DNA of 64,000 nt, from IMG/VR virus record IMGVR_UViG_3300032030_002802, positions 135,079-199,078 of that record; one strand, written 5' to 3'. Shown here one piece after another: positions 10,368 through 44,398 of the stretch. The notes below the pieces were generated by a model. That model worked only from the letters and a program-made list of their open reading frames with translations. It did no database searches and had not been told where the DNA came from. Position 1 is the first letter of the stretch; each line of letters starts with the position of its first letter. Source of the stretch: a virus (lineage: Duplodnaviria > Caudoviricetes). A program made the position numbers and the translations under genes.

Positions 10368-10547
10368 CTACACGGCCTCCATCACTGACGCAAACCCGGC
10401 GTCGAACTCGTCCGGATGCGCCGTATGCTGCGCGAGACCCACGGACAGCTCGAGCAGGTCCCTGACCTGCTCGCCCTGCAGACCGGCGTCCTCGGCGACC
10501 TTGGCGAAGCCATCCATGAAGCAGTCAAGTATGTTCTCGTCGTTCAT
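10368..10547 (-). CDS. Small hypothetical protein (59 aa) carrying the F-x-x-G-F-x-K-x-A motif
   Basis: ATG at 10547 (downstream of the tRNA): MNDENILDCFMDGFAKVAEDAG. Confidence 0.6.
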   Translation of the reverse strand: MNDENILDCFMDGFAKVAEDAGLQGEQVRDLLELSVGLAQHTAHPDEFDAGFASVMEAV

Positions 10548-10577
10548 AGCGGTATACGCGTGTCTGTTACGGTAAAA

Positions 10578-10669
10578 TGGCGGAGGGGGTGGGATTTGAA
10601 CCCACGGTGCAACTGTCGTCGCACGGCGATTTAGCAAACCACTGCCTTAAGCCACTCGGCCACCCCTCC
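10578..10669 (-). tRNA. tRNA-Ser (anticodon GCU), long variable arm, encoded CCA
   Basis: GGAGGGGTGGCCGAGTGGCTTAAGGCAGTGGT-TTGCTAA-ATCGCCGTGCGACGACAGTTGCACCGTGGGTTCAAATCCCACCCCCTCCGCCA. Confidence 0.95.
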
Positions 10670-10673
10670 AGCA

Positions 10674-10706
10674 AACGGGGCCCGGCCCGTCAAGACCGAG
10701 CCCCGC
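10674..10706 (-). terminator. GC-rich hairpin between capsid gene and tRNA (weak terminator or processing stem)
   Basis: GCGGGGCTCGGTC pairs with GGCCGGGCCCCGT (with G-U pairs), followed by a short T run. Confidence 0.4.
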
Positions 10707-10725
10707 TGCCTGGCTGGCGACGTCC

Positions 10726-11760
10726 TTAGAGGACCGCGCCAGGACCCCAGCCGGCCTTGCCGTCCCTCTGCGGGAACTTCAGGGTGGTGCCGGTGGGAAC
10801 CGTCGAGGGCTTGCCCGTCTGGTTGAAGCGGGCGAGCGCGACGCCGGCGATGTTGCCGAGGCCGAAGCCGCCGGTCCAGTAGGACCACATCTCGAGGAAG
10901 TACGCCTCCTTCTTCATGAACATGGTCCAGTCGTCAAGGTAGTAGGCCTTGCCGAGGAACTCAGGCGCAGCGAAGAAGTACACGTAGTTGTCCGGAACGA
11001 GAGCGGACTTGATCGTGAAGAGGCACTTGACCCCCATGATCGTGTCCATCGTGAGGCCGTTCTTGAACATCTCCTGCGCAAGGTCGCCACCGACCTCGTC
11101 GCGCTTCAGCTTCAGGAGGTCCTGGGCCGTCACGTCATTCATGAGGCAGATGTAGTTGCGGAGGTTGAACTTGCCCTGCTTGTTGCCGCGAGGCATGAGC
11201 TTCTTGGCTTCCGCGAAGGTCTCGCGGTTGAGCGGGTCGTAGAAGTCAATCAACTGCTTCTTGCCGGTGACGATGTTGACACCGTTCGCGTCGCAGTTGA
11301 AGATGATCGAGTTGATCGTCTCGATGAACTTGCCGTCGATCGTCGCGAGGCCGTCCTTGATGGAGTTGTCGACGAGCACCTTGCGGATGTCCATACGGTA
11401 CGTACGGAGCTCGTCGATGTCCTTCTGGAACTTCGGCGTGAGGACGCGGGTGAACGGAATCGCGAAGCGCGGCCCGGTGATGTACTCGCCGGTCGGCGCC
11501 GTCTCGAACGGCACCCACATCGCGCCGGGACCGTCGGGTTCGATCTCCTCGATGATCTGGAGGCGTTCGTCGAGCGTGCGGTCAAGCATGTCGTTGGTCG
11601 CCTTCTGGGGCGGGAGGATCTTGAACGCGAACGAGTCTTCGCGGATGTGGTTGCGGATGTAATCCGTAGCCGCGTCCTCCGCGACTTTCACGTTTCCGCG
11701 CTGGAGCTGCTCGAGGATACGGGCGTTCATCATCGCGGTACTGACATTCTGTGTGGACAT
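10726..11760 (-). CDS. Major capsid protein (HK97-like fold), 344 aa
   Basis: Follows protease, scaffold and decoration genes; IREDSFAFKILPP...PKFQKDIDELRTYRMDI pattern; strongly biased codon use. Confidence 0.8.
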   Translation of the reverse strand: MSTQNVSTAMMNARILEQLQRGNVKVAEDAATDYIRNHIREDSFAFKILPPQKATNDMLDRTLDERLQIIEEIEPDGPGAMWVPFETAPTGEYITGPRFAIPFTRVLTPKFQKDIDELRTYRMDIRKVLVDNSIKDGLATIDGKFIETINSIIFNCDANGVNIVTGKKQLIDFYDPLNRETFAEAKKLMPRGNKQGKFNLRNYICLMNDVTAQDLLKLKRDEVGGDLAQEMFKNGLTMDTIMGVKCLFTIKSALVPDNYVYFFAAPEFLGKAYYLDDWTMFMKKEAYFLEMWSYWTGGFGLGNIAGVALARFNQTGKPSTVPTGTTLKFPQRDGKAGWGPGAVL

Positions 11761-11778
11761 GGTGGGTATCTCCTTTCC

Positions 11779-12627: not shown

Positions 12628-12984
12628 TTAATCCGCTACTTGACCGTACTCCGGATGAAGCTCCGGGAACAGCCTCGCCTCCCACGGATCTACTGAGGAG
12701 GCGGATTTTATCCCGGCCGGAGCCCCGCTACCCAGCGAGTCGGCCGTGAAAGAACTTGCGAGCTTCTCGACGAAACCCCAGATGGAAGAGGGATCCTCCG
12801 CGACCTTCTGGACGAAGACGTCCACGGATTCGCGGGCGATGAGCCCCTGGTCGGCGAGGACCTTCGCCGCACCAGAGGCCCCCTTCACGAAGGTGTCGCG
12901 CTGAGCCTTGTATGCGTCCAGCTGCGGCTGTACGAGTTTGACGTAGTCCGCCGCTTTCTTCAATATCTCTTCGTGACTTGCCAT
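12628..12984 (-). CDS. Small head-module protein rich in K-x-A motifs, 118 aa
   Basis: KKA, KGA, KVA, KLA and KSA in 118 aa; lies between scaffold and decoration genes. Confidence 0.6.
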   Translation of the reverse strand: MASHEEILKKAADYVKLVQPQLDAYKAQRDTFVKGASGAAKVLADQGLIARESVDVFVQKVAEDPSSIWGFVEKLASSFTADSLGSGAPAGIKSASSVDPWEARLFPELHPEYGQVAD

Positions 12985-12996: not shown

Positions 12997-14844
12997 TTAC
13001 TTCGCAGCAGCCCTCGCCGCACGCGCCGCGTTGATAGCGGCGATGAGCTTGGACTCAGCCGTCTTCGGCTCGTCAGTCGGCGCGCCAGCCGCCGCGTCGG
13101 CAGCGGCAGGGGCCGCGGCCGCAGCAGCACCGGCGTCGGCGGCAGGTGCCGCAGCCGCGGCGCCCTCCTCCGGCGCGGGAACCCCCTCGAGCTCGCCGAG
13201 AACCTGCTGGACGTCCTGCGGCGTTAGCTCGCCGCTGGCGACGGCCTCCTGCAGCGCGGTCGCAATCTCCTCGGGGTTGACGTCGCCGGCTGCGCCGTCG
13301 CCGTCACCGTCGGCCCCGGCGCCTGCGTCGCCCCCGACGATCTCCTGGACGAGCTGGTCGGCCTCGTCCTCGGTGATCTCGCCGGACTGCACGAGCGTGT
13401 CGATGGCGTCAGCGACGTCGTCGGGGGAAATGTCGCCGACGCCGCCCTGGGGCACGGAATTGGGGTCAAGCTGCGAAGGGTCGACGGCAACCGTCTGGTC
13501 GATCGCCGCGTCTCCGGCGGCGGGCGCCGCGGCGGCCGCTGCGTCAGGCGCAGCCTGTGCGGCCTTCTCCCCGCCGGCATCGGCGGCTGCAGGGGCCGCG
13601 GCAGCACCGGCGTCCCCGGCGTCCCCGGCGTTCCCGGCACCGCCACCGTCAGCGAGAGCCTGTGCCAGCTCGACGACGACCTGGTCGGCCTCGTCCTCGG
13701 TGATCTCGCCTGACTCGACCATTGCGTCAAGCGTGTCCGCGATCTCCGCAATGCCGCCGTCATCGCCGCCGGCACCGCCGTCGTCGCCACCGCCCGCAGC
13801 CGCGAGGGCCTCGGCCGCCTCGGCGTCCTGGGCCTGCTTGAGGATGAGGTTGATGGCGTCCTGCCGGCCCGCGTTGAACTCGGCCTGCTTCTCCGCGAGA
13901 TCGTTCTGCTCGCGCAGGAAATTGAGGGTCTTCTCGGCGGCCTCCGCGCCGGCGGCCTTTGCGAGCACGCTCTCGGCGAGCTTGGTGCCCTCCTCGGTCG
14001 CAAGCATCACGGCCGCGATCTTCGCGAGCACGTCGCTGGTGAGCTCCATGTCGAGCGCGCCTGCGGCCTTCGCTGGCTTGGCGTCCTTGCAGTCCTTGGC
14101 GTCCTTGGCAGCCTGCGCGGCCTTGGCCTTGCACTTCTCGCACTTGCCGCACGTGCATTCACCGGCGGCAGCTCCGGCGGCCTTCGCGGCCGCCGCGGTC
14201 TCGCCGGACGAACCCTCGCCGGTGGCCGGGACGGTCGCGTCAGTGGTGACCTCGGGCTTCTTGGTGGGCGGGATGACGTCCTTCGTCTGCTCCGGCTCCT
14301 TGCCCTTGTCGGTAATCAAGGCCTCGGCCGTGCCCGCGCCTGCCGCGGGCGGCGTGTCGGAAGCTGTCTTCTGCTCGGCGCCCTGCTGCTCGGCGGGCTT
14401 TGCGGCTGCCCCCTCGGCGGCTGCACCTGCGTCAGCGGCTGATCCCTTGGAGGCGGCCTCCTTGGCGGCGGCCTCCTTGGCGGCGTACCACGCGTCGACG
14501 CCGGTGATGATCTCCGCCGCAAGCGATTCGGCCGTCTTCGCGTCCGCGTCGGACGTGACCTCGGGCTTCTTGGTGGGCGTAAGCGCCGCCTCGCCGGCCA
14601 GGAGGTCGTTCGTGTGGGTGATCTTGCTGTCGTCGCCAGCTCCGGACGTATTGAGACCCGAGTTCGGGACCATCGTCTGGTCCTTGGTCTCCTTGTCGGG
14701 CTCCTTCGCCTCTGCCGGCGGCTTGCCGTCGTGCTCGGAACCGGGAATGCTCGACGGCGGTGTGCCGACGATTTCAGCCTTCTTGGTCTCCAGCGACTTG
14801 CGGAGGCCCCTGATGTAGTCTAGTGTAGGATGTGCCATCTTCAT
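12997..14844 (-). CDS. Probable capsid scaffold protein (Ala/acidic, internal repeats), 615 aa
   Basis: Follows the protease; low complexity; repeats PTKKPEVT x2 and (E/Q)SGE(I/L)T x3; many K-x-A. Confidence 0.6.
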   Translation of the reverse strand: MKMAHPTLDYIRGLRKSLETKKAEIVGTPPSSIPGSEHDGKPPAEAKEPDKETKDQTMVPNSGLNTSGAGDDSKITHTNDLLAGEAALTPTKKPEVTSDADAKTAESLAAEIITGVDAWYAAKEAAAKEAASKGSAADAGAAAEGAAAKPAEQQGAEQKTASDTPPAAGAGTAEALITDKGKEPEQTKDVIPPTKKPEVTTDATVPATGEGSSGETAAAAKAAGAAAGECTCGKCEKCKAKAAQAAKDAKDCKDAKPAKAAGALDMELTSDVLAKIAAVMLATEEGTKLAESVLAKAAGAEAAEKTLNFLREQNDLAEKQAEFNAGRQDAINLILKQAQDAEAAEALAAAGGGDDGGAGGDDGGIAEIADTLDAMVESGEITEDEADQVVVELAQALADGGGAGNAGDAGDAGAAAAPAAADAGGEKAAQAAPDAAAAAAPAAGDAAIDQTVAVDPSQLDPNSVPQGGVGDISPDDVADAIDTLVQSGEITEDEADQLVQEIVGGDAGAGADGDGDGAAGDVNPEEIATALQEAVASGELTPQDVQQVLGELEGVPAPEEGAAAAAPAADAGAAAAAAPAAADAAAGAPTDEPKTAESKLIAAINAARAARAAAK

Positions 14845-14852: not shown

Positions 14853-16292
14853 TTAGAGATCCTGCGCGGCAACCAGGGCCAGCAAAGCATCTCGGTTCGT
14901 ATTTGACCCACCGACCTGTGCAGCCCCGTTGAGCGCCGCGGTCAAGGTCGAGACCTTGTACTCCGCGTACTTCAACGCAGTAGCCAGTATCGGCTTGTCG
15001 ATAGTATTAAAACATAATTCACGCGCACCGTCAATATGTGCACCTGCAACTTTTTGAAAATCCCCAGCTCCGTCGATCATAGTGCTGGCGATCATGTCGC
15101 CGACGCTGTCGGTGTCCGTGAACGAAGCCTGCTTCACGCAGGCGTCGGCTGCGGCCACCTCGGAGAACCGCCGCGACGGCCGGGTGGTGAACCTGTCCAC
15201 GTCGAAGTCGCTCGCCCCGGTGAAGTCGAAACGGCCGAGCCACGCGGCCTCCTTGATGGCCTGGGCCGCGAGCCGCCCGACCTCGGCGGCACGCGGGCCG
15301 ACCTCGGCGTACTCGGCGCTCTTCGGGCCCATCGCGTAGCGGCAGAACGCGTCCGGGCCGAGAAACGTCCCGTTGTCGACCAGAAACGCCATGGCCTCCT
15401 TGATCGGCATCCTGCGGAGGGTGTCGATCGTGGCGTCGTCCACACGCGCCTCAGCGGCCTTGGCCACGGGGCCGAAGACCTTGCAGGTATCCGGGGAACG
15501 GGCGTAGTCGTCGTACTGGTCGGCGAGGGCTCGGACGGTCTGGTGCTTGTCGGCCGCAAGGCAGGCGTCGAGCCACGGAGGCTCCACCACGCCGGCCGCC
15601 TTGGCGAGCATCTCGCTCGTCATGGTCTCGCCGGACGCGACCTTCAGGCTGTACGCGATGCGGTCCGCCGGGCGAGGCACGAAGCTGATGTCGAAGAAGT
15701 CGGGCAGGACGTTGCGCATAAACGCCACCTTGCCGTTCTCGGCCACCTTGCCGAGCCCGTTCCGGATGTGGTCGCACATGTTCGGGTCAGCGTTGTTCTT
15801 GCGGTGCGCGCCGCAGACCGAGCACTCGTCCCACGGGACGCGGCAGGCCATGCTGAAGCTGCACTCGCCGGTCTTCTCCAGCGTGTCGAGCCCGGCCTTG
15901 GCCTTGTCCTTGTCGGCCCAGATGAACAGCTCGACGCGGCCCATCTTGTCGTTGTACGCCGACGCCTTGACCGTGCCGAGGATCTCGTCCTTCTCCGCGT
16001 CGTTGTGGTGGCGCCAGAACACGTGGCCGTGCTTCACGAACGTGTCGTGGTACTTGACGCACGCCTCCTTGGGGAACGAGTCGGAGTTGCGGTTCGGGCC
16101 GTAGGTCTCCTCGTCGCCGAGGGCCGTGAGGTGGATGCCGACGTACTTGTCGTCCGTCGGCTTGAGGCTGTCGTAGCTCTGGCCGAAGATGGTCTCGGCC
16201 TCCTTGGACATCGCCGGCGAGTTGAACTCGGCGAACTTCGCGCCGATCTCCGGCACGTCGGCGAACTGCGACGACTCTATGAGCTTTACCAT
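14853..16292 (-). CDS. Prohead (capsid maturation) protease with Cys/His insertion, 479 aa
   Basis: ATG at 16292 with GAGGAG RBS. PNRNSDSF, VFWRHHN, SFSMAC..DECSVCG..CDHI, FFDISFVPRPAD fit HK97-type prohead proteases. Confidence 0.75.
   Translation of the reverse strand: MVKLIESSQFADVPEIGAKFAEFNSPAMSKEAETIFGQSYDSLKPTDDKYVGIHLTALGDEETYGPNRNSDSFPKEACVKYHDTFVKHGHVFWRHHNDAEKDEILGTVKASAYNDKMGRVELFIWADKDKAKAGLDTLEKTGECSFSMACRVPWDECSVCGAHRKNNADPNMCDHIRNGLGKVAENGKVAFMRNVLPDFFDISFVPRPADRIAYSLKVASGETMTSEMLAKAAGVVEPPWLDACLAADKHQTVRALADQYDDYARSPDTCKVFGPVAKAAEARVDDATIDTLRRMPIKEAMAFLVDNGTFLGPDAFCRYAMGPKSAEYAEVGPRAAEVGRLAAQAIKEAAWLGRFDFTGASDFDVDRFTTRPSRRFSEVAAADACVKQASFTDTDSVGDMIASTMIDGAGDFQKVAGAHIDGARELCFNTIDKPILATALKYAEYKVSTLTAALNGAAQVGGSNTNRDALLALVAAQDL
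15006..15034 (-). promoter_or_regulatory. sigma70-like promoter TTGACG-N17-TTTAAT (extended TG), inside the protease gene
   Basis: AT-rich patch ~160 bp upstream of the scaffold start; would drive scaffold-decoration-capsid. Confidence 0.55.
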
Positions 16293-16303: not shown

Positions 16304-17242
16304 CTACTGCTTCTTGTAGTTTGGCTGCGTGCTGGGGCCGAGCAGCTTGTGGAGCAGCATCGCGCCGCCTGCGCCGAGAAGCCCGTACTTGCCGGCGCGG
16401 AGCCCCATCCTGACGCCGGGCCCGACCTTGGGGAATATCCCCAGAAGATTCCCGGCGTGGTAGTGGCGTGCGCTGGTCCAGTTCTTGAGCCATCCCCTCG
16501 GATGCAGGATGGCGTCAAGCATGCCAGAACGCGGCATTCCGTTGCCATGCGCACCTACCTGCTGGATAAGGTCCGCGAACGAGGTGTACCCCCGCGTCAT
16601 CTTCTTGCGGAGATCACCGAGCAGCTTCAGCTCGGCTTTCGCCATCTCGGCGTCAACACCGCGCAACGACCTTACCCTGCGCCGGAGTGAATCCAGGATC
16701 CGGTTTGCACGCCTCGTGCCATCTTCGGTGGCGTCGTACATGGCCAGCCTGTTTTTCAGCGCATTGCGGATCTCCGCAGAAGCGCCGGAACGGACGGCCT
16801 CGTCGTAGAGCCTCCTCGCATCCCTCGCTGCATCCGTGCGTTTGCTGACTGCAAGCCCCCCGAGACGCTGCGTCTCGTCGCGCAGCGTCTTCACCAGTCC
16901 GACCCCCGTCGCGCCGACGCCGACGCCTGCGCCGATACCGGCGGCACGCCCGTAGTTGGAGCTGAGCTTGTCGTTGTCCGGAGCCAGGCTGCCGGAGTCG
17001 CGGAACATCGCAAGGCCCTTGGGGACGGCATACCCGGCCACTCCTCCGAGCAGCGCGCCGGTGAGCGCGTCGCCGACCGGCGCGAGCTTGCTCTCCTCGG
17101 GATCCCGCTCGCCGAGCAGGCTGGAGCCGCCCAGCACGAGCCCGCCAAGCGCGGACCCGATGATCGCGTTGCGCGCGTCCGACCTGGACATCATCTTGCT
17201 CCAGTCGACGGACGACACCATGTCCTTGAGTGAATTGGCCAT
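16304..17242 (-). CDS. Hypothetical glycine-zipper membrane-type protein, 312 aa
   Basis: Several GxxxG hydrophobic segments; basic. Confidence 0.7.
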   Translation of the reverse strand: MANSLKDMVSSVDWSKMMSRSDARNAIIGSALGGLVLGGSSLLGERDPEESKLAPVGDALTGALLGGVAGYAVPKGLAMFRDSGSLAPDNDKLSSNYGRAAGIGAGVGVGATGVGLVKTLRDETQRLGGLAVSKRTDAARDARRLYDEAVRSGASAEIRNALKNRLAMYDATEDGTRRANRILDSLRRRVRSLRGVDAEMAKAELKLLGDLRKKMTRGYTSFADLIQQVGAHGNGMPRSGMLDAILHPRGWLKNWTSARHYHAGNLLGIFPKVGPGVRMGLRAGKYGLLGAGGAMLLHKLLGPSTQPNYKKQ

Positions 17243-18579
17243 CAGTCCTCCTTCCTGCCCGCCGCGGGCGTCTTGGGGTCATACGCCTGGTGGCGCGCCT
17301 TGTCCACATCCGCCAGCGTCTTGGCGTCGTACGGGGACAGGGCCACCGACTGCACCACGCTGCGGAGCATGCTGCGGAGCACCTCCTTGTTGAGCGTGGT
17401 GTCAGGCGAAATCTGGTTCACGGACCGGAACGCCGCTATCACGGCGCTCGGGTCCTCCTGCGACAGCACCTTGTCGCGCACGAGCAGGTCCTGGAGGATG
17501 AGCTGTCGGCGGAGGTTGTTGACGCCCTCTGTCGCCTTCTCGATACGGCGCGCGGAGCCGTTGTCATGGTAGCCCTTCGCAGTGTCGGCCAGGTATGCCA
17601 GAAAGGAGGTAGTCATGCCACCACCGGAACCGGAGCCGCCTCCCCCTTTGCCGGGGGCCTGCTGGCGCTGGACCGGCGTCGCCGTGCGGCGCTGGTACTC
17701 GCCGAGGACGCGCTGCTTCAGCAGAAGGCGCTCGAGGGCGTCCTTGTCGTCCGGAAGAGTCTCCGGGAGCGACGCGTCCGGTACAGACTGGGCCTGCTTG
17801 CGCATCTCCCCCGCGTAGGCCTCCAGGGCCGCGGCCTCGGCCGCGAAATCGGCAGCCTCCTTGATGGCCGCGACGACGTCCCCGAGGTCGCTGACGTCCA
17901 CCACGTGCATGGCGGCGTACTTGTCCAGCAACGATACGTCGGGATCCGAGGCGACCGGCAGGAACTCCGCGACCTTCTCGACGCCCGGCGCGTACCGGTC
18001 GTCCAGCGCGTAGGCCGCCACGAGGCGGGCCACGCGGTCGTGCACGTTGTCGATGCTCACGTTGCGCGAGATGGCCATCGCGATCTTCTCGGCGAGCTCG
18101 TCGGCCATGGAATACGCCGCGCGGGCCTCCTCCTCGGCAGTCTTGACGCACTCGCGGACGGTCTCCGCCGCGCGGACAGCGAGCCAGTCCTTGGCCTCCT
18201 CGGAGAGCGGGGCGTCAGTCACGACGAACTCGGCCATCTTGACCTCTGGGACGACGTAGTCGACCTCGTCCTGCTGGTAGCAGCCGTAGTCGTACTTGTC
18301 GTACTCCGCGGCCTTCTCGGCGGCCGCAGGGGCGGTGAGCCGGCCGTGCACCGTCTCCTTGTCGGCGAGCGAGCACGGGCTGGTCCTGTCGGAGGCCGCC
18401 TTGTAGTGGCAGATGACGCGGGCCGTGTTGAACGTCTCGACGAGGCGATCCGCCTGGTCCTCGTTGAACCCCGCCTCGTTCGCGGCCTTGACGACCGCCG
18501 CGTTCGGGTCGCCCGTGTCCTGGAAATAGGACACGGCGCTCGTAAGCGCGTCCTTCAGCTGTGTCTTGAATGAACTCAT
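17242..18579 (-). CDS. Hypothetical head-module protein with dense K-x-A motifs, 445 aa
   Basis: Coupled ORF with GC3-biased codons; KAA, KMA, KTA, KIA, KVA, KEA, KQA. Confidence 0.75.
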   Translation of the reverse strand: MSSFKTQLKDALTSAVSYFQDTGDPNAAVVKAANEAGFNEDQADRLVETFNTARVICHYKAASDRTSPCSLADKETVHGRLTAPAAAEKAAEYDKYDYGCYQQDEVDYVVPEVKMAEFVVTDAPLSEEAKDWLAVRAAETVRECVKTAEEEARAAYSMADELAEKIAMAISRNVSIDNVHDRVARLVAAYALDDRYAPGVEKVAEFLPVASDPDVSLLDKYAAMHVVDVSDLGDVVAAIKEAADFAAEAAALEAYAGEMRKQAQSVPDASLPETLPDDKDALERLLLKQRVLGEYQRRTATPVQRQQAPGKGGGGSGSGGGMTTSFLAYLADTAKGYHDNGSARRIEKATEGVNNLRRQLILQDLLVRDKVLSQEDPSAVIAAFRSVNQISPDTTLNKEVLRSMLRSVVQSVALSPYDAKTLADVDKARHQAYDPKTPAAGRKED

Positions 18580-19574: not shown

Positions 19575-20156
19575 CTATTCCTGCGGCTGGGCCTGGTAGT
19601 CAGACGGCTGGCCTCCCCTGATGGCCCTGTCCACGGCGTATATGCCGCCGGCCATGACGCCACCGGTGCCGACGCGGGCGCCCATCGACTTCCAGAACTC
19701 GCGGGTCCGCTCAGCGTCGACCCCCTTGAGTCGTCGGCTGAAGTGCGAGACATCAGCGCGGGTAGGCAGCGACGGGACAGCCGCCAGCTGCCGCCTGACG
19801 GACTCTGCGCGGGCGTTCAGCCGGTTGACGCGGTCCATCACGCCAGTCCCGCCCTCGATCACGCCCTCCAGCTCCCTGTCGCGCAGCTTTGTGATCGCCT
19901 CGAGACGCGACGTCAACTTCGGAATGGCCGACCTGTCCGGGTGCAGCCTGTTCCAGAGGTTCGAGTACTCCCCGCTGAGCCGGTCGAAGCGCGATCCAGT
20001 CAGCAGCTCGTTGTACCTGCCGGCGAAACCCCTTGCACGAGACAGGGCACGCCCCATCCAAGCAGGGAGAGCCTGCTTGTACAGGGCCGCTGGGTCTACC
20101 CCGAGGGCCTCGGCCGCCTTGCAGAAGCCGGCGGCGTATGCCTCGTCTCGCGTCAT
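19575..20156 (-). CDS. Hypothetical protein with AGFCKAAEA leader cassette, 193 aa
   Basis: Begins MTRDEAYAAGFCKAAEALGVDPAALYKQA-LPAW; paralog of 37839-38438. Confidence 0.75.
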   Translation of the reverse strand: MTRDEAYAAGFCKAAEALGVDPAALYKQALPAWMGRALSRARGFAGRYNELLTGSRFDRLSGEYSNLWNRLHPDRSAIPKLTSRLEAITKLRDRELEGVIEGGTGVMDRVNRLNARAESVRRQLAAVPSLPTRADVSHFSRRLKGVDAERTREFWKSMGARVGTGGVMAGGIYAVDRAIRGGQPSDYQAQPQE

Positions 20157-20187: not shown

Positions 20188-21051
20188 CTACTGCCTCTGC
20201 CCCTGCGCCTGGTCAATCGCCTTGTTGATCATGCGACGTCTCCCGAAGTGTGCGCCAGCCAGGAGAGCACCCAGTATCGGGGAAGCTACAAGTCCTAATT
20301 TACCGGCCAGGGAACCGGTGTGCGCAAGACGTCCAACCGCCTTTGCGACACCAGGGTGCCGCGCTGAGAACGTAGGGGCGAGTTTCCGGACATGGCGTAT
20401 CCAATGTTTCGCCTTCTCGTTCCCTGCACCCATATTGTCCATTGCCGTAAACACTACCGGCACCCCGAGCGTTCCCGCCGTCGCAGAGCCCAATATGCCG
20501 GCCCAGTTACCGACGTTGCTCGTGCGGTACTTCTCGATGTCGATCCCACGGTCCTTCTTCGCCTTGAGCTCCTGTACAAGCCGCTCCTGCGGGGTGTAGT
20601 CCGGGAGATTTGCGCTCACCCAGTCAGACACCCCGTCCGCCACCTTGGCCAGCGCCCCGGGGTCGACCCCCATGGCCTCGGCGGCCTTGCAGAAGCCGGC
20701 GGCGAACGCCTGCTCCTCCGGAGTGGGCTGGGCCTCAGCGGCCTTGGCCGCCCCCTGGGCCTTGCCGAGCAGGCCCGCGATGAGGTTCCTGGCCGTGCCG
20801 ACTCCGTTGCGCAGGCCCTGCTGCCAGCGCGGGTCGGTCATGAGCTTGTACCCGCCGTAGCCAAGAGCCGCGCCAAGCGTGCCCTTGCCAATGCGCTTGA
20901 GCATCGACTGGTCGTCATCCGTGACGGCAGAGCCGCCTAGTGCGCCGCCTCCGGCCATCGCGAGCGCCCCGGCAATCTGCGCAGGGTCAATCGCGGCCTT
21001 GACAAGCACGGCCCTGCGTGCCTGCGAACGAATTGCTGCTGTCTTGTTCAT
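20188..21051 (-). CDS. Hypothetical two-module protein with KTAAIRSQARR leader and internal AGFCKAAEA cassette, 287 aa
   Basis: AAGGAG RBS; glycine-zipper segments on both sides of the cassette. Confidence 0.75.
   Translation of the reverse strand: MNKTAAIRSQARRAVLVKAAIDPAQIAGALAMAGGGALGGSAVTDDDQSMLKRIGKGTLGAALGYGGYKLMTDPRWQQGLRNGVGTARNLIAGLLGKAQGAAKAAEAQPTPEEQAFAAGFCKAAEAMGVDPGALAKVADGVSDWVSANLPDYTPQERLVQELKAKKDRGIDIEKYRTSNVGNWAGILGSATAGTLGVPVVFTAMDNMGAGNEKAKHWIRHVRKLAPTFSARHPGVAKAVGRLAHTGSLAGKLGLVASPILGALLAGAHFGRRRMINKAIDQAQGQRQ
20654..20718. repeat. 65-bp exact repeat, copy 1 (copy 2 at 38296-38360; diverged copy ~20077-20136)
   Basis: gccccggggtcgacccccatggcctcggcggccttgcagaagccggcggcgaacgcctgctcctc is identical in both places. 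Confidence 0.95.
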
Positions 21052-24566: not shown

Positions 24567-25064
24567 TTACGACCCCGCTATCACGGCCGGCGCCGCCTGC
24601 TGCGCCTTGCCCTGCAGGACGGCGATGAGCGTGTCGAGCTTGGCGCTGATGTCGGCCTGGGGCTGCTGGGCCTGCTGCTGCGCCGGCGCGCCGTTCGCGC
24701 CGAACGCCGCCATCATCTGCTTGATGAACTTGGTGAACTCGTCGGCCGTCATGTTGATCATGCCGGTCTGCGGCGCGCCTCCCGCCATCGACGGATCAAC
24801 TGGCGGCATGCCGGCCATCGGGTCGCCGCCCGGGGGCATCCCGCCCATCATGGACGGGTCCACGCCGGGGGGCATCCCGCCGGCCCCCGGATCGCCGCCG
24901 GGGGGCATCCCGCCAGCCCCGGGGTCCATTCCAGGAGGCGGCATGCCACCTGCACCCGGGTCGCCGCCAGGCGGCGGAGGGCCGCCCGCGCCGGGATCGC
25001 CCGGAACGAAAGCGCGCTTCACAAGCACGGCGCGGACTGCGTCCGCCATAGATCGTCTGGTCAT
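24567..25064 (-). CDS. Pro/Gly/Met repeat protein, 165 aa
   Basis: AAGGAG RBS; about six (G/M)DPGAGGMPPG units after the leader RAVLVKRA. Confidence 0.75.
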   Translation of the reverse strand: MTRRSMADAVRAVLVKRAFVPGDPGAGGPPPPGGDPGAGGMPPPGMDPGAGGMPPGGDPGAGGMPPGVDPSMMGGMPPGGDPMAGMPPVDPSMAGGAPQTGMINMTADEFTKFIKQMMAAFGANGAPAQQQAQQPQADISAKLDTLIAVLQGKAQQAAPAVIAGS

Positions 25065-28723: not shown

Positions 28724-28752
28724 ATTGTACCATGATTCGCCAAAATACACAA
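28724..28752 (-). promoter_or_regulatory. sigma70-like promoter TTGTGT-N17-TACAAT (extended TG)
   Basis: Intergenic, between the RNAP stop and the LRR gene. Confidence 0.55.
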
Positions 28753-34410: not shown

Positions 34411-34418
34411 GTCTCCTC

Positions 34419-37838: not shown

Positions 37839-38438
37839 TCAAGTGGCCGACTTATCGCCGCCACCAAACGCAGCCCTGCCCAGCCCGTACAACCCTCCAG
37901 CGCCGGCAAGAGCCGTACCAGTCCTCGCGGCGATCATGCCGGTTCTCGCGCGACGGGTCGCATCGATCGCCTCACGGCGTTTGGTGATCAGCCCGAGCAG
38001 GTCGCTCTTGAGCTGGTCTATCCTGCCGCGCAGGTTACTACCTACTGTGGCGTTACTGGCCGCCGAGCTGTGCTGGAATTTTGAATACGTGGACCGCGCA
38101 TTAGCCAGCCCCTTGCTGACCGCGTCCTTGTCACGCCCCAGGCTTGCAACAGACTCACGCAGCTGCTTGAGGCGTGAACCGGTGAGCGCACCCCAGTAGC
38201 TCTTTGCGCCGCGGCCCACGGCCTGCCCTACGCGGCTGTTGGCCACGGCCCTACCGGCGTTTGCGATCCAGGCCGGGAGGGCCTCCTTGTACAGGGCCCC
38301 GGGGTCGACCCCCATGGCCTCGGCGGCCTTGCAGAAGCCGGCGGCGAACGCCTGCTCCTCAGGGGTGAACTGGGCCGCTGCGGTCTTTGTCAACGCGGCC
38401 CTGCGGGCCTGCGAACGGATTGCTGCTGTCTTGCCCAT
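37839..38438 (-). CDS. Hypothetical protein with KTAAIRSQARR leader and AGFCKAAEA cassette, 199 aa
   Basis: Shares DNA repeats with 20188-21051 and payload similarity (LPAW...LTGSR) with 19575-20156. Confidence 0.75.
   Translation of the reverse strand: MGKTAAIRSQARRAALTKTAAAQFTPEEQAFAAGFCKAAEAMGVDPGALYKEALPAWIANAGRAVANSRVGQAVGRGAKSYWGALTGSRLKQLRESVASLGRDKDAVSKGLANARSTYSKFQHSSAASNATVGSNLRGRIDQLKSDLLGLITKRREAIDATRRARTGMIAARTGTALAGAGGLYGLGRAAFGGGDKSAT
38296..38360. repeat. 65-bp exact repeat, copy 2
   Basis: Identical to 20654-20718. Confidence 0.95.
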
Positions 38439-38468: not shown

Positions 38469-40058
38469 TCAAATCACGCCCTGGGCGTTCAGCCTGCGCA
38501 TGAGCTTGCTGATCTTGGCCTTGTTGGCCCTGATGTAGGCCGCTGCCCCGGGGTCGGCCGCCTCGACTCCTACCTTGCGGTGGCCGCGGAGCCGTCTCCG
38601 GACCTTCGCCAGAACGGCCTTCTCGTCCACGCCGGACTCCGGGTCTGCGACGGTGCTGTCAGCTGCCCCTAGCAGCGCGTCGCGCAGCGTGCCGACGCTC
38701 ACCATGTCGTCTAGCCCTGCGGCCTTCATGTTCATGGCGCGGTCCACGAGCCAGTCGCGGCCGCCCATGGCCGCAAACGCCTTCGCCGACCCGCGGGCTA
38801 CCTTGTTCCACGCCCGGCGGATGATGCCGTCGTTCGGACCGTTCGCGAACTGCGCGTCGATGGCCGCGTCTACCGCGCGGCGGTACGTCTCGGGGTGCTT
38901 GCCGCGAAGTATGTCGACGGCCTTCCGGCGGTCGAAGTTCAGCCCGAAATCAGTGCTGTTCAGGATGCTCGACAGGGCCTTCGGGTCCTGCAGGACCACG
39001 TTGTACACCTTGGACATGTCGGCCGCGGCCATCTTCATGAGGCCGGCAGGGTCCGTCCCGGCGGCTTCGGCGATCTTGACGTACGGCTCCGCGAGGGTGC
39101 GGTTCGGCTTCCCCTCCACGACGTCCATGTAGATTGGCAGCATGGCCGTGATCGCCGCGCACGTGTCGGCCGACGCCTGCTTCTCCTTGCCCTCCTCGCC
39201 CTCCACGAGCGACGGCGTGCCGCCCTCCGTGCGGAACACGATCCTGGTCGGGCGGTTGATGTCCTTCTTGAGCTTCTCCTCGGGGAACTCGCGGTCCATC
39301 ACCTTCTTCGTGATGTACGCCGTGGCCCCGGTGCCGGCGAGCAGTGCGAGGAGATACGCCGCAGTGGGGTAGCGCATGGTATTCGTCAGGCCGTCGGGCA
39401 GGAGGTCAACCCACCCGGCAACCTTCACGGACGTGTCCTTAGACAAGACGCGCTCGGCCGGGCCGATGATAGACATCATGACCTCAGCGCGCTTCGACGA
39501 ACCCGCCATGGCGTCGACATAGGCCTGCTGCGCGGCCTTGAGCTTGCGCTTGAGACGGCGCTCCTGCATCGCGTCGAACATGCGCGACACGACCTCGTAA
39601 GAAAGCAGCCCTCCGGCGGTGAGGCCCAGGGCGTTTGCCACGATCGTGCCGACGCTGTTGGGTCCAGGGTTGCCGTCGCCCGCGGCCTTCACCTCGTCCT
39701 TCTCCTTGGACTTGGGCGGCGCGATCTTGGCGGCGTACCTGCCGGCCTCGCGGAACTGCTGCCCGCCGTTGGCCGTGACCTTGGTCTCCCCCGGCTTGGC
39801 GTCGCGCATGCCGGTGTAGCCGTCGCCGGCCGTCTTCGGGAGGGTGAGCACTATCGTGTCCTCGTCCGTAGACTCCGGCTTCCTGTCCCGCAGCTCGCGG
39901 AACCTGCGGAGGAGGTTGGCGGCCGCGCTGACGCCGGCGCCGCCCAGGACGCCGGCCATGAGCGCAGTGACGAACCGGCGGTTGTTGATGTCGCCGAACG
40001 GTACTGGCAACTGGGTTACGGAATTTGTGCCTCCAGCTGACTTGATCTGCGTGTCCAT
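38469..40058 (-). CDS. Multi-module membrane-type protein punctuated by K-x-A, 529 aa
   Basis: Three hydrophobic GxxxG helices; KSA, KTA, KAA, KRA, KVA, KQA, KIA, KMA. Confidence 0.8.
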   Translation of the reverse strand: MDTQIKSAGGTNSVTQLPVPFGDINNRRFVTALMAGVLGGAGVSAAANLLRRFRELRDRKPESTDEDTIVLTLPKTAGDGYTGMRDAKPGETKVTANGGQQFREAGRYAAKIAPPKSKEKDEVKAAGDGNPGPNSVGTIVANALGLTAGGLLSYEVVSRMFDAMQERRLKRKLKAAQQAYVDAMAGSSKRAEVMMSIIGPAERVLSKDTSVKVAGWVDLLPDGLTNTMRYPTAAYLLALLAGTGATAYITKKVMDREFPEEKLKKDINRPTRIVFRTEGGTPSLVEGEEGKEKQASADTCAAITAMLPIYMDVVEGKPNRTLAEPYVKIAEAAGTDPAGLMKMAAADMSKVYNVVLQDPKALSSILNSTDFGLNFDRRKAVDILRGKHPETYRRAVDAAIDAQFANGPNDGIIRRAWNKVARGSAKAFAAMGGRDWLVDRAMNMKAAGLDDMVSVGTLRDALLGAADSTVADPESGVDEKAVLAKVRRRLRGHRKVGVEAADPGAAAYIRANKAKISKLMRRLNAQGVI

Positions 40059-42017: not shown

Positions 42018-42033
42018 AGTCTGTACCGCCTAT

Positions 42034-42777
42034 CTACGCAGTGGCACCGGCGCGACGTCCCTTGCCCTTGTCCGTGCCCTTGTCCTTGCCGTCGCGCTCT
42101 TTAGCAGCAGACCGGGTGCGGCCACGGAACGCCGTACCCGAGTGCTGATAGGCCAAAGAGCCGAGCCCGCCGGCCGTACCGGCAGCGCCTACAAGAAGTA
42201 GCGTCTTGGCGAGAGGAGACATAGACGCGGGGGCCGGCGCGGGGGCCGGCGCGGGGGCCGGCGCGGGGGCCGGCGCGGGGGCCGGCGCGGGGGCCGGCGC
42301 GCCACCACGGGACGACCCGGCCAGCGCAGCCGTCCCGGCAGAGCCAAGACCCAGGGCCGCGAGAATCCTCCCGGGCGACAAGCGCGTCGTCACACCCTGC
42401 TTCGCGGCATGGCGAAGCTCGCTATACGGACGAGGCGCTCCGCCTGCGCCACCGTAAGCGCCGCCGCTGTAAGCTGCACCACCGCCACCGGCGGGCGGCA
42501 CCGGCGAGTTCCACGCCGACGTGGACGTGTTCCTCGTCTTGATGAACAGCCGGCGCGGGTCGAATTTCGACCAGCCGCTTGTATTGATCTTCGGAGAGGC
42601 CTTCAGCTGGGCGCGACGGAGCAGCCGCACGAGCATCTTCACCTTAGACGATGCCTGTTTCTGCATGCACTGTGCCTGCAGCGCCTCTGCGAACTTCGTG
42701 TGCACATACTGTGCACGCTGTTCGGCGCGCTTCACCTGAAGAGCCGCCGCGAACTTGTCGTATACGTCCTGTCTCAC
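42034..42777 (-). CDS. Hypothetical protein with (AP)n linker between two glycine zippers, 247 aa
   Basis: GTG with AGGAGG RBS; duplicated leader KFAAALQVKRA / KFAEALQAQCMQKQA. Confidence 0.75.
   Translation of the reverse strand: MRQDVYDKFAAALQVKRAEQRAQYVHTKFAEALQAQCMQKQASSKVKMLVRLLRRAQLKASPKINTSGWSKFDPRRLFIKTRNTSTSAWNSPVPPAGGGGAAYSGGAYGGAGGAPRPYSELRHAAKQGVTTRLSPGRILAALGLGSAGTAALAGSSRGGAPAPAPAPAPAPAPAPAPAPAPAPASMSPLAKTLLLVGAAGTAGGLGSLAYQHSGTAFRGRTRSAAKERDGKDKGTDKGKGRRAGATA
42227..42298. repeat. Perfect 12-bp tandem repeat x6 (gcgggggccggc) encoding (AP)12
   Basis: Read directly from the sequence. Confidence 0.95.
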
Positions 42778-42803
42778 TGCCTATTCCTCCTTGATTCACG
42801 TAA

Positions 42804-42832
42804 ATTATAGCACACCTGTTGCGATATGCCAA
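42804..42832 (-). promoter_or_regulatory. sigma70-like promoter TTGGCA-N17-TATAAT (extended TG)
   Basis: Intergenic; heads the unit that runs into the RNAP genes. Confidence 0.7.
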
Positions 42833-42837
42833 TAGTG

Positions 42838-43185
42838 TCACTTCGCCTGGCCGCCTCCGTCGGCACGGCTGTACTCCATCCACTCGAGATACCCGAACCA
42901 CCCGGTCGACCCGTCCTTCCTGGAGAGGGTCTGCCGGTCGTGGACGAGGATCCTGACGGTGCCGAGCTGCGCGCGCTTGGAGAGATCCAGCATGCGCCTG
43001 TTGTACGCCGTCCGGTCTTTCGCCGCGTGCATGTCGAATATCTCGGTCCTGTACTTCGATATCTCGACCACGCGCCCGTACCGCGCCTTCTGCTCGCCCT
43101 CCCGGATCGTGCTCTCGTCCGGGGTGAGGTCGCGCAGGCGCGGAAACAGCGAATCAACGTCAGACTGCAGCCCCGCCAGCATCAC
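42838..43185 (-). CDS. Hypothetical protein, ~115 aa
   Basis: GTG/ATG at 43185/43182 overlapping the upstream stop. Confidence 0.6.
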   Translation of the reverse strand: MMLAGLQSDVDSLFPRLRDLTPDESTIREGEQKARYGRVVEISKYRTEIFDMHAAKDRTAYNRRMLDLSKRAQLGTVRILVHDRQTLSRKDGSTGWFGYLEWMEYSRADGGGQAK

Positions 43186-43514
43186 ATCCCTCCCCCGAGC
43201 CCAGCGGCCATCTCGTCGGCGGCCGACTGGTACAGCTTGATCTTCTCCTTCAGCTCCTCCTCGCGAAGGCGCTTTCCGGCAATGCGGCGGCCGATGATGT
43301 GGCTGGCCACGCCGATGGGGATGCCGGCGCCGGCCGCGGCCAGCACCCACAGCGTCTTGGCGGCGTCCACGCCGCCCTTGGCGGCGTCCAGTATGCCGGC
43401 CGTCTTCTCCTGCGGAAGCGGGCCCAGTTCGGCATCCAGCATGCCGGCGTACGCCAGCGCCCCGGTCTTGATGCACGCGATCCTCTCGCTCTTGTTCAGG
43501 TAGTCTGAAAACAT
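43182..43514 (-). CDS. Small hypothetical membrane protein, 110 aa
   Basis: ATG at 43514; leader ending EKTA followed by LWVLAAAGAGIPIGVA. Confidence 0.65.
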   Translation of the reverse strand: MFSDYLNKSERIACIKTGALAYAGMLDAELGPLPQEKTAGILDAAKGGVDAAKTLWVLAAAGAGIPIGVASHIIGRRIAGKRLREEELKEKIKLYQSAADEMAAGLGGGM

Positions 43515-43519
43515 ACTCT

Positions 43520-44398
43520 CTACTCCCTTATGGCGTTCAATGTTCCTACTCCGAGGCCGGCCAGGGACCCGACGAGCGCGCCGCGCCCGGCCCCGAACAG
43601 CCCGCACCTGACCCCGGCCTCCACCAGCTTGTCGCGGAGCACGTCCTGGGGCAGCGACGCGCTGTCCGCCGCGCCGTTGGCCAGGCCCACCCCTAGCGCG
43701 CCGGCTCCCAGCCCGCCCAACGCCGTGCCCCACAGGGCGCCCTTGGCCGTGCCGGACACCACGTGGCCGAGAAACGACCTGCGCCGCTTCGACCTGGCCG
43801 ACGCGCGCTCGACGGCGTCCTCCAGCCTAGGGGCCAGCCGACCGTAGAGGGCGTTGATCTCGTCCGGGCGGAACATGATCTGCGCCTGCTTCTCGATGCG
43901 CCTCTCCTTACCGTGATGCGGAAGCCCGACAAGACCAAGTGCCTTAAGACGACGAAACAACCGTGCATCCTCACGTACCAGGTCATACATACGGCCAAGA
44001 TCCAGATTCCGCGGCATCCTTGCCCTTCGTCTCGCGTACCACGCAGCTAAAAGCGGTGACACCTCCTTCTCAGCGACTATCATGGCATCTGACGGCATAT
44101 TCCCCATCGGCCCAAGCACCTGAAGAGTATTATCGGCATCACGTAAAACGGTCGGCACTGAGCCAGCCAGAACATCACGACTGAAGATAGCTGGCGAAAG
44201 GTCGTCGGCCCGCTTCTCCTTCCGCTCCGGAAGGCCTGCGTGCGGGGTCTCCGCGAAGTGCCGCGCGTCCTCGTCGGAGATGCGCCGCGACAGTGCCGCA
44301 ACCCGGTTGCGCAGTGAACGGCTTCCGTGGAACTCGCCCTTGTTGTAGGCGTGCACCATCCCGAACAGACGCTGCTGAGATTTGGACCTAGCTGGCAT
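43520..44398 (-). CDS. Hypothetical protein with MPARSKSQQRLFGM N-terminal module (DUF3008-like) and C-terminal glycine zippers, 292 aa
   Basis: GGAGGAG RBS; modules separated by EKRA and EKQA. Confidence 0.7.
   Translation of the reverse strand: MPARSKSQQRLFGMVHAYNKGEFHGSRSLRNRVAALSRRISDEDARHFAETPHAGLPERKEKRADDLSPAIFSRDVLAGSVPTVLRDADNTLQVLGPMGNMPSDAMIVAEKEVSPLLAAWYARRRARMPRNLDLGRMYDLVREDARLFRRLKALGLVGLPHHGKERRIEKQAQIMFRPDEINALYGRLAPRLEDAVERASARSKRRRSFLGHVVSGTAKGALWGTALGGLGAGALGVGLANGAADSASLPQDVLRDKLVEAGVRCGLFGAGRGALVGSLAGLGVGTLNAIRE

What the first reader, a model, noticed from the sequence alone, without database searches (positions are those of the whole stretch)
10368..44398. Pervasive K-x-A motif in head-module proteins: probable new prohead-protease cleavage code
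Seen: K-x-A (often followed by A/G/S/E) recurs in the scaffold (KKA, KTA x3, KQA x2, KIA), 12628, 17242, 21063, 38469 and 43520. It also occurs right after the protease domain (SLKVAS) and at MCP residues 25-27 (VKVAE), often at apparent module boundaries. It looks sparse in sheath, tube and sugar enzymes. Established: T4 and phiKZ prohead proteases cut many head proteins after short Glu-ending motifs (L/I-x-E; S/A/G-x-E). Inference: the protease at 14853-16292 cuts after K-x-A, and the motif can be used to predict which hypothetical proteins are inside the head.
Basis: partly seen in the sequence, partly recalled or inferred. Interest (0 to 1): 0.8.

Follow-up and report, generated by a model that had tools for sequence, protein, structure and literature searches.

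The report
Lys-x-Ala head-protease cleavage code
Several head-assembly proteins of this uncultured 199-kb phage, and the same proteins in hundreds of relatives, carry far more copies of a short Lys-x-Ala signal than chance allows; it most likely marks where the phage's own T4/herpesvirus-type capsid protease cuts (after alanine, not after glutamate as in the studied phages), but no cut has been measured.

Summary
After per-protein composition shuffles, K-x-A is the most over-represented of all residue pairs at spacings 0-3 in the head block (128 vs 79.7, z 6.0). It sits at expectation in the rest of the window and of the 199-kb genome. The excess lies in about eight proteins, not the whole 10368-44398 block. 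It survives local shuffles. It recurs in nine syntenic relatives with 39-58% GC (443 vs 150, z 27), where tail genes show none. R-x-A, K-x-S and K-x-G are not enriched. The fuller motif is (L/F/M)-x-K-x-A followed by S/A/E.

The gene at 14853-16292 has the T4 gp21 / herpesvirus assemblin fold (Z 10.5 and 8.7). Its two best-conserved outer sites flank the catalytic domain. All 120 capsid-protein homologues keep K-x-A near residue 28. A site lies 15-21 residues from the scaffold C-terminus in the window and five of eight relatives.

The best reading (about 0.7) is a prohead-protease code with Ala at P1 and Lys at P3. This is a new variant of a known kind, and it is unproven. The motif flags processed proteins, not all head proteins. 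This scan has noted the same code before on other genomes of this clade.

The parts
14853..16292 (-). Prohead protease, 479 aa. It has an N-terminal gp21/assemblin-fold domain (residues about 33-219, nt about 15636-16196) and a helical C-terminal half. It carries 14 K-x-A sites.
   Evidence: The start at 16292 fits the GC3 frame switch and the homologue N-termini. AF2 model pLDDT is 80. VIA-align hits: 5jbl_A Z 10.5, rmsd 2.7, 134 aa; 1vzv_A Z 8.7; 8j3s_A Z 6.3. H54, S147, C157, C160, C173 and H175 are invariant. K-x-A is 14 vs 4.5. The 117 homologues carry 12-21 sites each.
15636..15644 (-). K217-V-A219, followed by S220: the predicted release site just after the protease domain.
   Evidence: K-x-A is present here in 98% of 117 homologues. 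The site lies in the pLDDT<50 linker 213-231. Phage G gp19 has ILEKVASK at the same place.
16197..16205 (-). K30-E-A32: the predicted N-terminal activation site of the protease.
   Evidence: K-x-A is present here in 100% of 117 homologues. It lies just before the folded domain, where pLDDT rises after residue 30.
12997..14844 (-). Scaffold-like, Ala-rich (26% Ala), low-complexity protein of 615 aa with 20 K-x-A sites. One is K594-T-A596, 19 residues from the C-terminus.
   Evidence: 20 vs 11.1, p 0.001; local shuffle p 0.0005. Orthologues: 108 vs 48. The C-terminal site recurs in five of eight relatives, and two more have A-S-A there.
12628..12984 (-). 118-aa protein with six K-x-A sites every 14-26 residues.
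   Evidence: 6 vs 1.4. Orthologues: 44 vs 9.9, z 12. Site positions are conserved in the alignment.
10726..11760 (-). Major capsid protein, 344 aa. The K25-V-A27 site is at nt 11680-11688, so the predicted mature N-terminus is E28.
   Evidence: 29% identity to Arash gp226, the major capsid protein. All 120 homologues have K-x-A in the first 45 residues with a variable x; the next residue is Q in 115, E in 3, A in 2. The mature part is at expectation, 187 vs 178.6.
17242..18579 (-). 445-aa head-module protein. It has 12 K-x-A sites every 18-37 residues through residue 281, then a conserved 164-residue C-terminal domain without any.
   Evidence: 12 vs 4.2. Orthologues: 102 vs 36, z 12. The weak Arash homologue gp220 has 10 vs 3.0.
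21063..23510 (-). 815-aa virion protein of unknown fold (weak Arash gp218 homologue; not the portal). It has 11 K-x-A sites in three clusters.
   Evidence: 11 vs 3.8. 150 representatives at under 50% identity carry 1480 vs 580, z 40.7. Sites map to residues 1-40, 150-300 and 550-650 only. No PDB fold match. The portal homologue is elsewhere in the genome.
37839..38438 (-). 199-aa protein. It starts MGKTAAIRSQARR and carries the shared module ...AAGFCKAAEAMGVDPGALYKEA, which holds two K-x-A sites.
   Evidence: 6 vs 2.5, p 0.025. Paralogous to 20188-21051 and 19575-20156.
20188..21051 (-). 287-aa paralogue with the same N-terminal 20 residues and the same two-site module at residues 103-146.
   Evidence: BLASTP against 37839-38438 gives 80% over residues 1-20 and 70% over 44 residues. 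6 vs 3.4, p 0.11.
19575..20156 (-). 193-aa paralogue with the two-site module at residues 4-29, followed by 164 residues without sites.
38469..40058 (-). 529-aa protein with 12 K-x-A sites. Their flanking context is weaker than in the other enriched proteins.
   Evidence: 12 vs 5.7, p 0.005; local shuffle p 0.006. It is not among the 25 genes with most high-scoring flanks.
10368..10547 (-). 59-aa protein with a single site, DGFAKVAED.
   Evidence: Longer orthologues in three relatives carry 9 vs 3.4.

Best explanation
K-x-A, more fully (L/F/M)-x-K-x-A followed by S/A/E/Q/G, is the cleavage code of the phage's own prohead serine protease (14853-16292).

Inferred mechanism:
1. The protease is built into the prohead with the scaffold and other core proteins.
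2. It frees its roughly 187-residue catalytic core by cutting after A32 and A219.
3. It removes about 27 residues from the capsid-protein N-terminus.
4. It detaches the scaffold's C-terminal tail.
5. It chops the scaffold, its own helical C-terminal half, the 118-aa protein and the first 281 residues of the 17242 protein into peptides of about 10-40 residues. These can leave the shell or stay as internal peptides.

In this reading Ala is P1, Lys is P3 and the hydrophobic residue is P5. Side chains at alternate positions face one way on an extended strand, as in the P3/P1 codes of T4 (L/I-x-E), phiKZ/SPN3US (A-x-E) and herpesvirus assemblin (V/L-x-A then S/T).

Shown here: the enrichment, its specificity, its conservation, the placement of sites and the protease fold. 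Inferred: that the sites are cut, by this enzyme, after Ala.
For: - Enrichment: head block z 6.0, top of all pairs; the rest of the window 27 vs 28.4. It holds under local shuffles. In the whole genome it is confined to the 140-160 kb bins.
- Relatives: in nine related contigs at 39-58% GC the genes upstream of the capsid gene give z 5.2-8.8 each, and the tail genes give -2.2 to +0.8. Protease orthologues give 133 vs 31.
- Specificity: K-x-A z 26.8, R-x-A 0.0, K-x-S -3.3, K-x-G -2.2. L-x-K and F-x-K rank next, at z 9.5 and 7.3.
- Flanks: L/F/M is 3-4 times enriched two residues before K. S/A/E/C are favoured after A, and L/R/P/V/K are disfavoured there. A flank matrix trained on relatives separates this genome's head sites from its other K-x-A sites (p 2e-6).
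- Fold: T4 gp21 Z 10.5, VZV protease Z 8.7.
- Placement: the sites at K30 (100% of homologues) and K217 (98%) flank the catalytic domain, and K217 lies in a disordered linker. All 120 capsid-protein homologues keep the N-terminal site while x varies. The scaffold C-terminal site recurs in five of eight relatives.
- Turnover: many sites move between columns among homologues while the number per protein is kept at 12-21.
- Cultured relatives: Arash gp220, gp222, gp223 and gp225 are enriched and its capsid protein has VKEAG. Phage G gp19 has 8 vs 2.4.
- Precedents: assemblin cuts after Ala at a release site behind the protease domain and at a maturation site near the scaffold C-terminus (PMC4498786). 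SPN3US gp245 cuts after A-x-E and auto-cleaves (PMC10052503).
Against: - No proteomic or biochemical datum exists for any member of the clade. The Arash supplement holds no peptide-level data, and the phage G capsid paper was not held.
- The scissile bond is inferred by analogy only.
- Some conserved sites lie inside folded regions and are probably not cut: protease K75, capsid K284-x-A286.
- Many sites in the protease C-terminal half fall in confident helices.
- The phage G capsid protein lacks the motif.
- Orthologues share ancestry, so the large z values from relatives overstate the number of independent events.
- The catalytic role of H54 and S147 was not verified by superposition. No Pfam or PDB sequence match was found.
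Confidence: 0.7

Rival explanations
1. K-x-A is cut, but not after Ala or not by this enzyme. The cut could fall after Lys (a trypsin-like rule with Ala at P2'), or one residue further on, or a host or second phage protease could read the motif.
For: Nothing here fixes the bond. Lys is as strict as Ala. Glu often follows Ala in this phage (30 vs 6.3), recalling the Glu-P1 rule of T4 and phiKZ.
Against: In the relatives the residue after Ala is mostly A, S or E, and Q in the capsid proteins, so Glu is not required. The alternating hydrophobic/K/A pattern fits P5/P3/P1. When a conserved site is lost, Ala is most often replaced by Ser or Gly. Two relatives have A-S-A at the scaffold C-terminal site. 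Enzymes of the same fold in herpesviruses cut after Ala. The motif density peaks in the protease itself.
Confidence: 0.1
2. K-x-A is a short docking motif that is not cleaved. It would bind the inside of the capsid shell, the scaffold or the protease groove, and so recruit proteins into the prohead.
For: The motif is specific to the head module and turns over like a short linear motif. It sits in shared leader modules of three paralogues.
Against: Twelve to 21 copies per protease and 20 in the scaffold are far more than docking needs. The sites flank the catalytic domain and sit at the capsid-protein N-terminus and scaffold C-terminus, the classical cut positions. The packaged RNA polymerase subunits lack any enrichment.
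Confidence: 0.12
3. The excess is a by-product of Ala/Lys-rich helical composition, or of a DNA-level signal, and has no function of its own.
For: The scaffold is 26% Ala and low in complexity. Many sites are in predicted helices.
Against: Global and local shuffles, the reverse pair A-x-K and the other spacings all fail to reproduce the excess. R-x-A and K-x-S/G are flat. Tail proteins and other genes of the same genome are flat. Codons at the motif vary freely (AAA/AAG, all four GCN) in relatives of 39-58% GC.
Confidence: 0.03

Closest known systems
Bacteriophage T4 prohead protease gp21 (MEROPS S77; PDB 5JBL) and its maturation programme
   Same: It is the best structural match to residues 17-207 (Z 10.5, rmsd 2.7, 134 aa). 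Both are encoded next to scaffold and capsid genes. Both show predicted self-trimming at both ends. Many sites lie in core or scaffold proteins, and an N-terminal piece is removed from the capsid protein (T4 behaviour from my own knowledge).
   Different: T4 cuts after Glu in (L/I)-x-E. Here the over-represented signal is K-x-A, with L-x-E only mildly raised (132 vs 98). No sequence-level match to Pfam or PDB. This protease carries an invariant Cys3-His cluster and a 260-residue helical C-terminal half.
phiKZ gp175 / SPN3US gp245 prohead proteases (A/S/G-x-E code)
   Same: These are large phages that package RNA polymerase and many head proteins. Their protease auto-cleaves and cuts multiple sites in propeptides, and the motif is used to predict substrates (PMC10052503).
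   Different: P1 is Glu there and, on this reading, Ala here. P3 is small there and Lys here. The capsid protein (344 aa) and gene order differ, so this is a separate, Arash-like lineage.
Herpesvirus assemblin (MEROPS S21), R-site and M-site
   Same: Same fold (VZV protease Z 8.7, HCMV Z 6.3). It cuts after Ala with a small residue following (YLQA-T, VQA-S). One site lies directly behind the protease domain and one near the scaffold C-terminus (PMC4498786). The window has matching sites at A219/S220 and A596/E597.
   Different: P3 is hydrophobic in herpesviruses and strictly Lys here. Herpesviruses use two or three sites, whereas this phage has dozens. The third member of the catalytic triad is not identified here.
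Bacillus phage G gp19 (head maturation protease)
   Same: It is a sequence homologue of the protease domain (E 6e-16; tblastn 4e-11). It has 8 K-x-A vs 2.4 expected, including ILEKVASK right behind the domain.
   Different: The phage G capsid protein has no K-x-A (A-L-A-Q at the matching spot). Only gp19, gp21 and gp7 are raised, so the code there is weaker or different.

Membership tests
gp21/assemblin-fold prohead serine proteases (MEROPS S77, S78, S21) | Characteristic fold of the catalytic domain | tested here: met
   5jbl_A Z 10.5, rmsd 2.7, 134 of 165 residues; 1vzv_A Z 8.7; 8j3s_A Z 6.3. The next unrelated rows have Z of 6.0 or less. The Foldseek rows were weak (5jbl_B prob 0.80, E 0.78).
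gp21/assemblin-fold prohead serine proteases (MEROPS S77, S78, S21) | Invariant catalytic Ser and His | tested here: inconclusive
   H54 and S147 are invariant in 69 sequences and lie on strands 50-59 and 145-151. Their equivalence to the gp21 and assemblin catalytic residues could not be checked because no superposed coordinates were available.
gp21/assemblin-fold prohead serine proteases (MEROPS S77, S78, S21) | Sequence-profile membership | tested here: inconclusive
   Pfam: no hit at E 0.1 or better. A PDB profile search found none at E 10 or better. There is only a weak PHROG match to phrog_18299, head maturation protease (E 2e-4).
gp21/assemblin-fold prohead serine proteases (MEROPS S77, S78, S21) | Gene placed just upstream of scaffold and capsid genes | tested here: met
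   The order protease, scaffold-like protein, 118-aa protein, 274-aa protein, capsid protein is kept in the syntenic relatives shown (L003, L010).
T4/phiKZ-type Glu-P1 cleavage code | Substrates marked by (L/I)-x-E or (A/S/G)-x-E | tested here: not met
   In the enriched families K-x-A has z 26.8. L-x-E has only 4.4 (132 vs 98) and no x-E pair ranks higher. This tests sequence enrichment, not cleavage.
Assemblin-type Ala-P1 code | Cut after Ala with a small residue following | not testable with these tools
   It is inferred from the strict Ala, from S/A/E/Q after it, and from A-to-S/G replacements at lost sites.
Assemblin-type Ala-P1 code | Release site directly behind the protease domain and maturation site near the scaffold C-terminus | tested here: met
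   K217-V-A219 is kept in 98% of homologues, in a disordered linker. A K-x-A lies 15-21 residues before the scaffold C-terminus in the window and five of eight relatives. This shows that the motifs are present, not that they are cut.

The most novel reading that the evidence does not exclude
A large, widespread clade of roughly 100-210-kb phages that package RNA polymerase (the Arash-like lineage: 448 capsid-protein homologues and 1842 representative clusters of the 815-aa protein family) matures its heads with a gp21-fold protease. That protease would have switched from the Glu-P1 rule of all studied phage relatives to a strict Lys(P3)-x-Ala(P1) rule, converging on the Ala-P1 rule and the R-site/M-site layout of herpesvirus assemblin. 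The processed head proteome of uncultured members, including genes far from the head module, could then be read from sequence alone.
Probability: 0.6. Interest if true: 0.65.

Novelty: new variant of a known kind. Interest (0 to 1): 0.6.

Why it matters
Prohead proteases are known to set which proteins stay in a phage head, yet a cleavage rule has been measured for only a few lineages, and those I know of in large myoviruses cut after Glu. This would be a strict, sequence-readable Lys-x-Ala rule tied to a gp21-fold enzyme. If confirmed, it would:
- give a second specificity class within that fold;
- link phage and herpesvirus maturation more closely, through Ala at P1 and release- and maturation-type sites;
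- allow the processed head proteins, propeptides and mature termini of hundreds of uncultured large phages to be predicted.

It is directly testable in the cultured Salmonella phage Arash.

Tried and rejected
Relatives were fetched with the search for related loci instead.
- Pfam and PHROGs gave nothing for most head proteins.
- I first took 21063-23510 for the portal. I rejected this because the Arash portal homologue lies at G000:12344-14095, BLASTP of Arash gp204 found nothing in the window, and the AF2 model matched no portal. The protein atlas gave no lead.
- The Arash paper and its supplement hold coverage figures and annotation only, with no peptide-level termini.
- The phage G capsid and mass-spectrometry paper (J Mol Biol 2020) is not held.
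- A PDB profile search with the protease alignment found nothing.
- Literature searches found no report of a K-x-A prohead code. This is a limited search, not proof of absence.
- Rejected as explanations: global or local composition, a helix-spacing artefact (other spacings flat) and a DNA-level motif.
- Motif avoidance in uncut head proteins is not clear. 40062-42017 has 0 vs 3.5 and 35960-37813 has 1 vs 3.5, but the 1881-aa RNA polymerase protein has 11 vs 9.6.
Full report
CONTEXT

The window is the last 64 kb of a 199,078-bp IMG/VR virus record that CheckV rates complete. It has 65% GC. All real genes lie on the minus strand.

The capsid protein (10726-11760) is 29% identical to the major capsid protein of Salmonella phage Arash and 27% to three Vibrio phages. 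Arash is a 181-kb myovirus whose virions hold multisubunit RNA polymerase (PMC10585845).

Other genes in the window:
- a tail sheath at 6001-8277 (phrog_279);
- split RNA polymerase genes at 28765-37813;
- sugar-nucleotide enzymes at 56-63 kb.

I curated 52 genes from the GC3 frame signal and start-codon context.

Yes.

Window statistics:
- Against 2000 composition-preserving shuffles per protein, seven proteins are significantly enriched: 12628-12984 (6 vs 1.4), 12997-14844 (20 vs 11.1), 14853-16292 (14 vs 4.5), 17242-18579 (12 vs 4.2), 21063-23510 (11 vs 3.8), 37839-38438 (6 vs 2.5) and 38469-40058 (12 vs 5.7).
- 43520-44398 is not enriched (3 vs 1.5).
- I did not preselect the motif. Among all 400 residue pairs at spacings 0-3, K-x-A is the most enriched in the head block (128 vs 79.7, z 6.0), followed by K-x-x-E. 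In the remaining genes K-x-A is 27 vs 28.4.
- Shuffling only within 15- or 30-residue windows still gives 87 vs about 37 for the eight proteins. A-x-K, K-A and K-x-x-A are unremarkable.
- Over the whole genome only the 140-160 kb bins stand out (z 5.5 and 5.0). One further gene outside the window, G000:108300-109382, has 12 vs 3.1 with typical flanks.

INDEPENDENT REPLICATION IN RELATIVES

An alignment-based scan of IMG/VR returned eleven loci; nine of the ten full-length syntenic ones were analysed. They have 39-58% GC and 52-70% capsid identity.

- In each contig the genes upstream of the capsid gene are enriched (z 5.2-8.8). The downstream tail genes are not (z -2.2 to +0.8).
- By orthologue group: protease 133 vs 31 (z 20), the 118-aa protein 44 vs 9.9, the 445-aa protein 102 vs 36, the scaffold 108 vs 48 and the 815-aa protein 47 vs 21.
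- The orthologues of 11779, 16304 and 18579 and all tail groups are flat.
- Pooled, K-x-A reaches z 26.8. R-x-A gives 0.0, K-x-S -3.3 and K-x-G -2.2. L-x-K and F-x-K come next.
- The 443 sites give the logo (L/F/M)-x-K-x-A-(S/A/E/C)-(D/A). Charged residues and Gly are avoided at -2, and L/R/P/V/K are avoided after Ala.
- A flank matrix trained only on the relatives separates this genome's head sites from its other K-x-A sites (Mann-Whitney p 2e-6).
- Codons at the motif vary freely, so the signal is at protein level.
- 150 representatives (under 50% identity) of the 815-aa family carry 1480 vs 580 (z 40.7).
- The 117 protease homologues carry 12-21 sites each.
- Shared ancestry inflates these z values. 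Even so, many sites sit in different alignment columns in different lineages while the number per protein is kept.

WHAT THE PROTEASE IS

The gene starts at 16292. An AF2 model built from 69 sequences has mean pLDDT 80.

- Residues 17-216 match T4 gp21 (5jbl_A: Z 10.5, rmsd 2.7, 134 residues), VZV protease (Z 8.7) and HCMV protease (Z 6.3). These are the three best matches of 48,161 representative chains; only the T4 gp21 and VZV rows stand clear of the MCE-domain rows that follow (Z up to 6.0).
- Foldseek alone was weak.
- H54 and S147 are invariant. So is a C157/C160/C173/H175 cluster.
- No Pfam or PDB sequence match exists.
- Phage G gp19 is a sequence homologue.

WHERE THE SITES LIE

- Protease: the most conserved sites are K30 (100% of homologues), K217 (98%, in the pLDDT<50 linker right after the last strand), K75 (94%, inside the fold) and K278 (92%). 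K30 and K217 bracket a core of about 187 residues.
- Capsid protein: all 120 homologues keep K-x-A between residues 15 and 34. The middle residue is any of nine amino acids. The next residue is Q (115), E (3) or A (2). The rest of the protein is at expectation.
- Scaffold: a site lies 15-21 residues from the C-terminus in the window and five of eight relatives, ahead of a conserved basic amphipathic tail. Two further relatives have A-S-A there.
- The 445-aa protein has a site every 18-37 residues through residue 281, then a conserved 164-residue domain with none.
- The 118-aa protein would be cut into pieces of 11-26 residues.
- In the 815-aa protein, sites cluster at residues 1-40, 150-300 and 550-650 and are absent elsewhere.
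- Three paralogues (19575, 20188, 37839) share a module with two sites.

INTERPRETATION

This layout is what a prohead protease programme looks like.
- T4 gp21 trims itself, the capsid protein and the core proteins (my own knowledge).
- SPN3US gp245 auto-cleaves and cuts several motifs per propeptide (PMC10052503).
- Herpesvirus assemblin cuts after Ala at a release site behind the protease domain and at a maturation site near the scaffold C-terminus (YLQA-T, VQA-S; PMC4498786).

The alternating hydrophobic/Lys/Ala pattern fits P5/P3/P1 on an extended strand, so I place the cut after Ala. At lost sites Ala is most often replaced by Ser or Gly.

None of this shows cleavage. I put the cleavage-after-Ala reading at about 0.7. 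The rivals are a cut at another bond or by another enzyme (0.10), an uncleaved docking motif (0.12) and an artefact (0.03).

- The motif does not mark the whole 34-kb block.
- It does not mark all head residents. The RNA polymerase subunits and the true portal (G000:12344-14095, 1 vs 2.3) are not enriched.
- The 815-aa protein is not the portal.

CULTURED RELATIVES

- Arash gp220, gp222 (the protease homologue), gp223 and gp225 are enriched, and its capsid protein has VKEAG. Published data give coverage only.
- Phage G gp19 carries 8 vs 2.4, including ILEKVASK behind the domain, but its capsid protein has no site.

EARLIER NOTES OF THIS SCAN

After I had fixed my reading, a look-up showed that the same K-x-A code had been noted on at least five other genomes of this clade. 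These are unchecked AI notes. They agree with this report but are not independent evidence.

VERDICT

This is a new variant of a known kind of system, experimentally untested, and directly testable in Arash.

Noticed in passing
outside the window: G000:C1:108300-109382 (minus strand): A 360-aa protein has 12 K-x-A (3.1 expected), eight of them with high-scoring flanks trained on the relatives. This is the densest in the genome. It is a likely protease substrate encoded 26 kb from the head module.
   Followed up: partly
outside the window: G000:C1:12344-14095 (minus strand): The true portal gene (31% identity to Arash gp204, E 8.6e-88) lies about 120 kb from the capsid gene in this linear record. 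It is not enriched in K-x-A (1 vs 2.3).
   Followed up: partly
window 28765-37813 (minus strand): Three adjacent genes encode split multisubunit RNA polymerase parts: 35960-37813 has Rpb1 domain 5, and 28765-34410 (1881 aa) matches beta-subunit PHROGs. The Arash homologues are among the most abundant virion proteins, so a packaged RNA polymerase is likely.
   Followed up: partly
window 15768-15824 (protease residues 157-175): An invariant C157, C160, C173, H175 cluster sits inside the protease domain. It may be a zinc site, which I do not know from T4 gp21.
   Followed up: no
protease homologues P0146, P0160, P0175 (829-839 aa): Some protease homologues are about 350 residues longer and carry Hint-type intein domains (PF13403, PF05203).
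   Followed up: no
window 19575-20156, 20188-21051, 37839-38438: Three paralogues share a 26-44-residue module (AAGFCKAAEA(L/M)GVDP...K-x-A), and two of them share the N-terminus M-x-KTAAIRSQARR. This may be a leader or targeting module. 10368-10547 and 38469-40058 have look-alike stretches.
   Followed up: partly
window 27108-28733 and 47002-51441: A BspA-type leucine-rich-repeat protein (PF13306, 9e-54) shares repeats with the N-terminal part of a 1479-aa protein that resembles a tail fibre.
   Followed up: no
window 24567-25064 and 42034-42777: Two low-complexity proteins: one has repeated DPGAGGMPP units, and the other has a run of eleven Ala-Pro pairs before a hydrophobic stretch.
   Followed up: no
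window 44000-60000: GC falls from about 0.66 to 0.59-0.62 over a block of glycosyltransferase-like and sugar-nucleotide genes (UDP-galactopyranose mutase at 56804-57982; RmlD and RmlA follow at 60654-62404).
   Followed up: no
L013 (Bacillus phage G) 16840-17742: Phage G gp19 has K-x-A sites before (LVKTAAKVVKIAP) and just after (ILEKVASK) its protease domain. The phage G capsid protein has A-L-A-Q where this clade has K-x-A-Q.
   Followed up: partly
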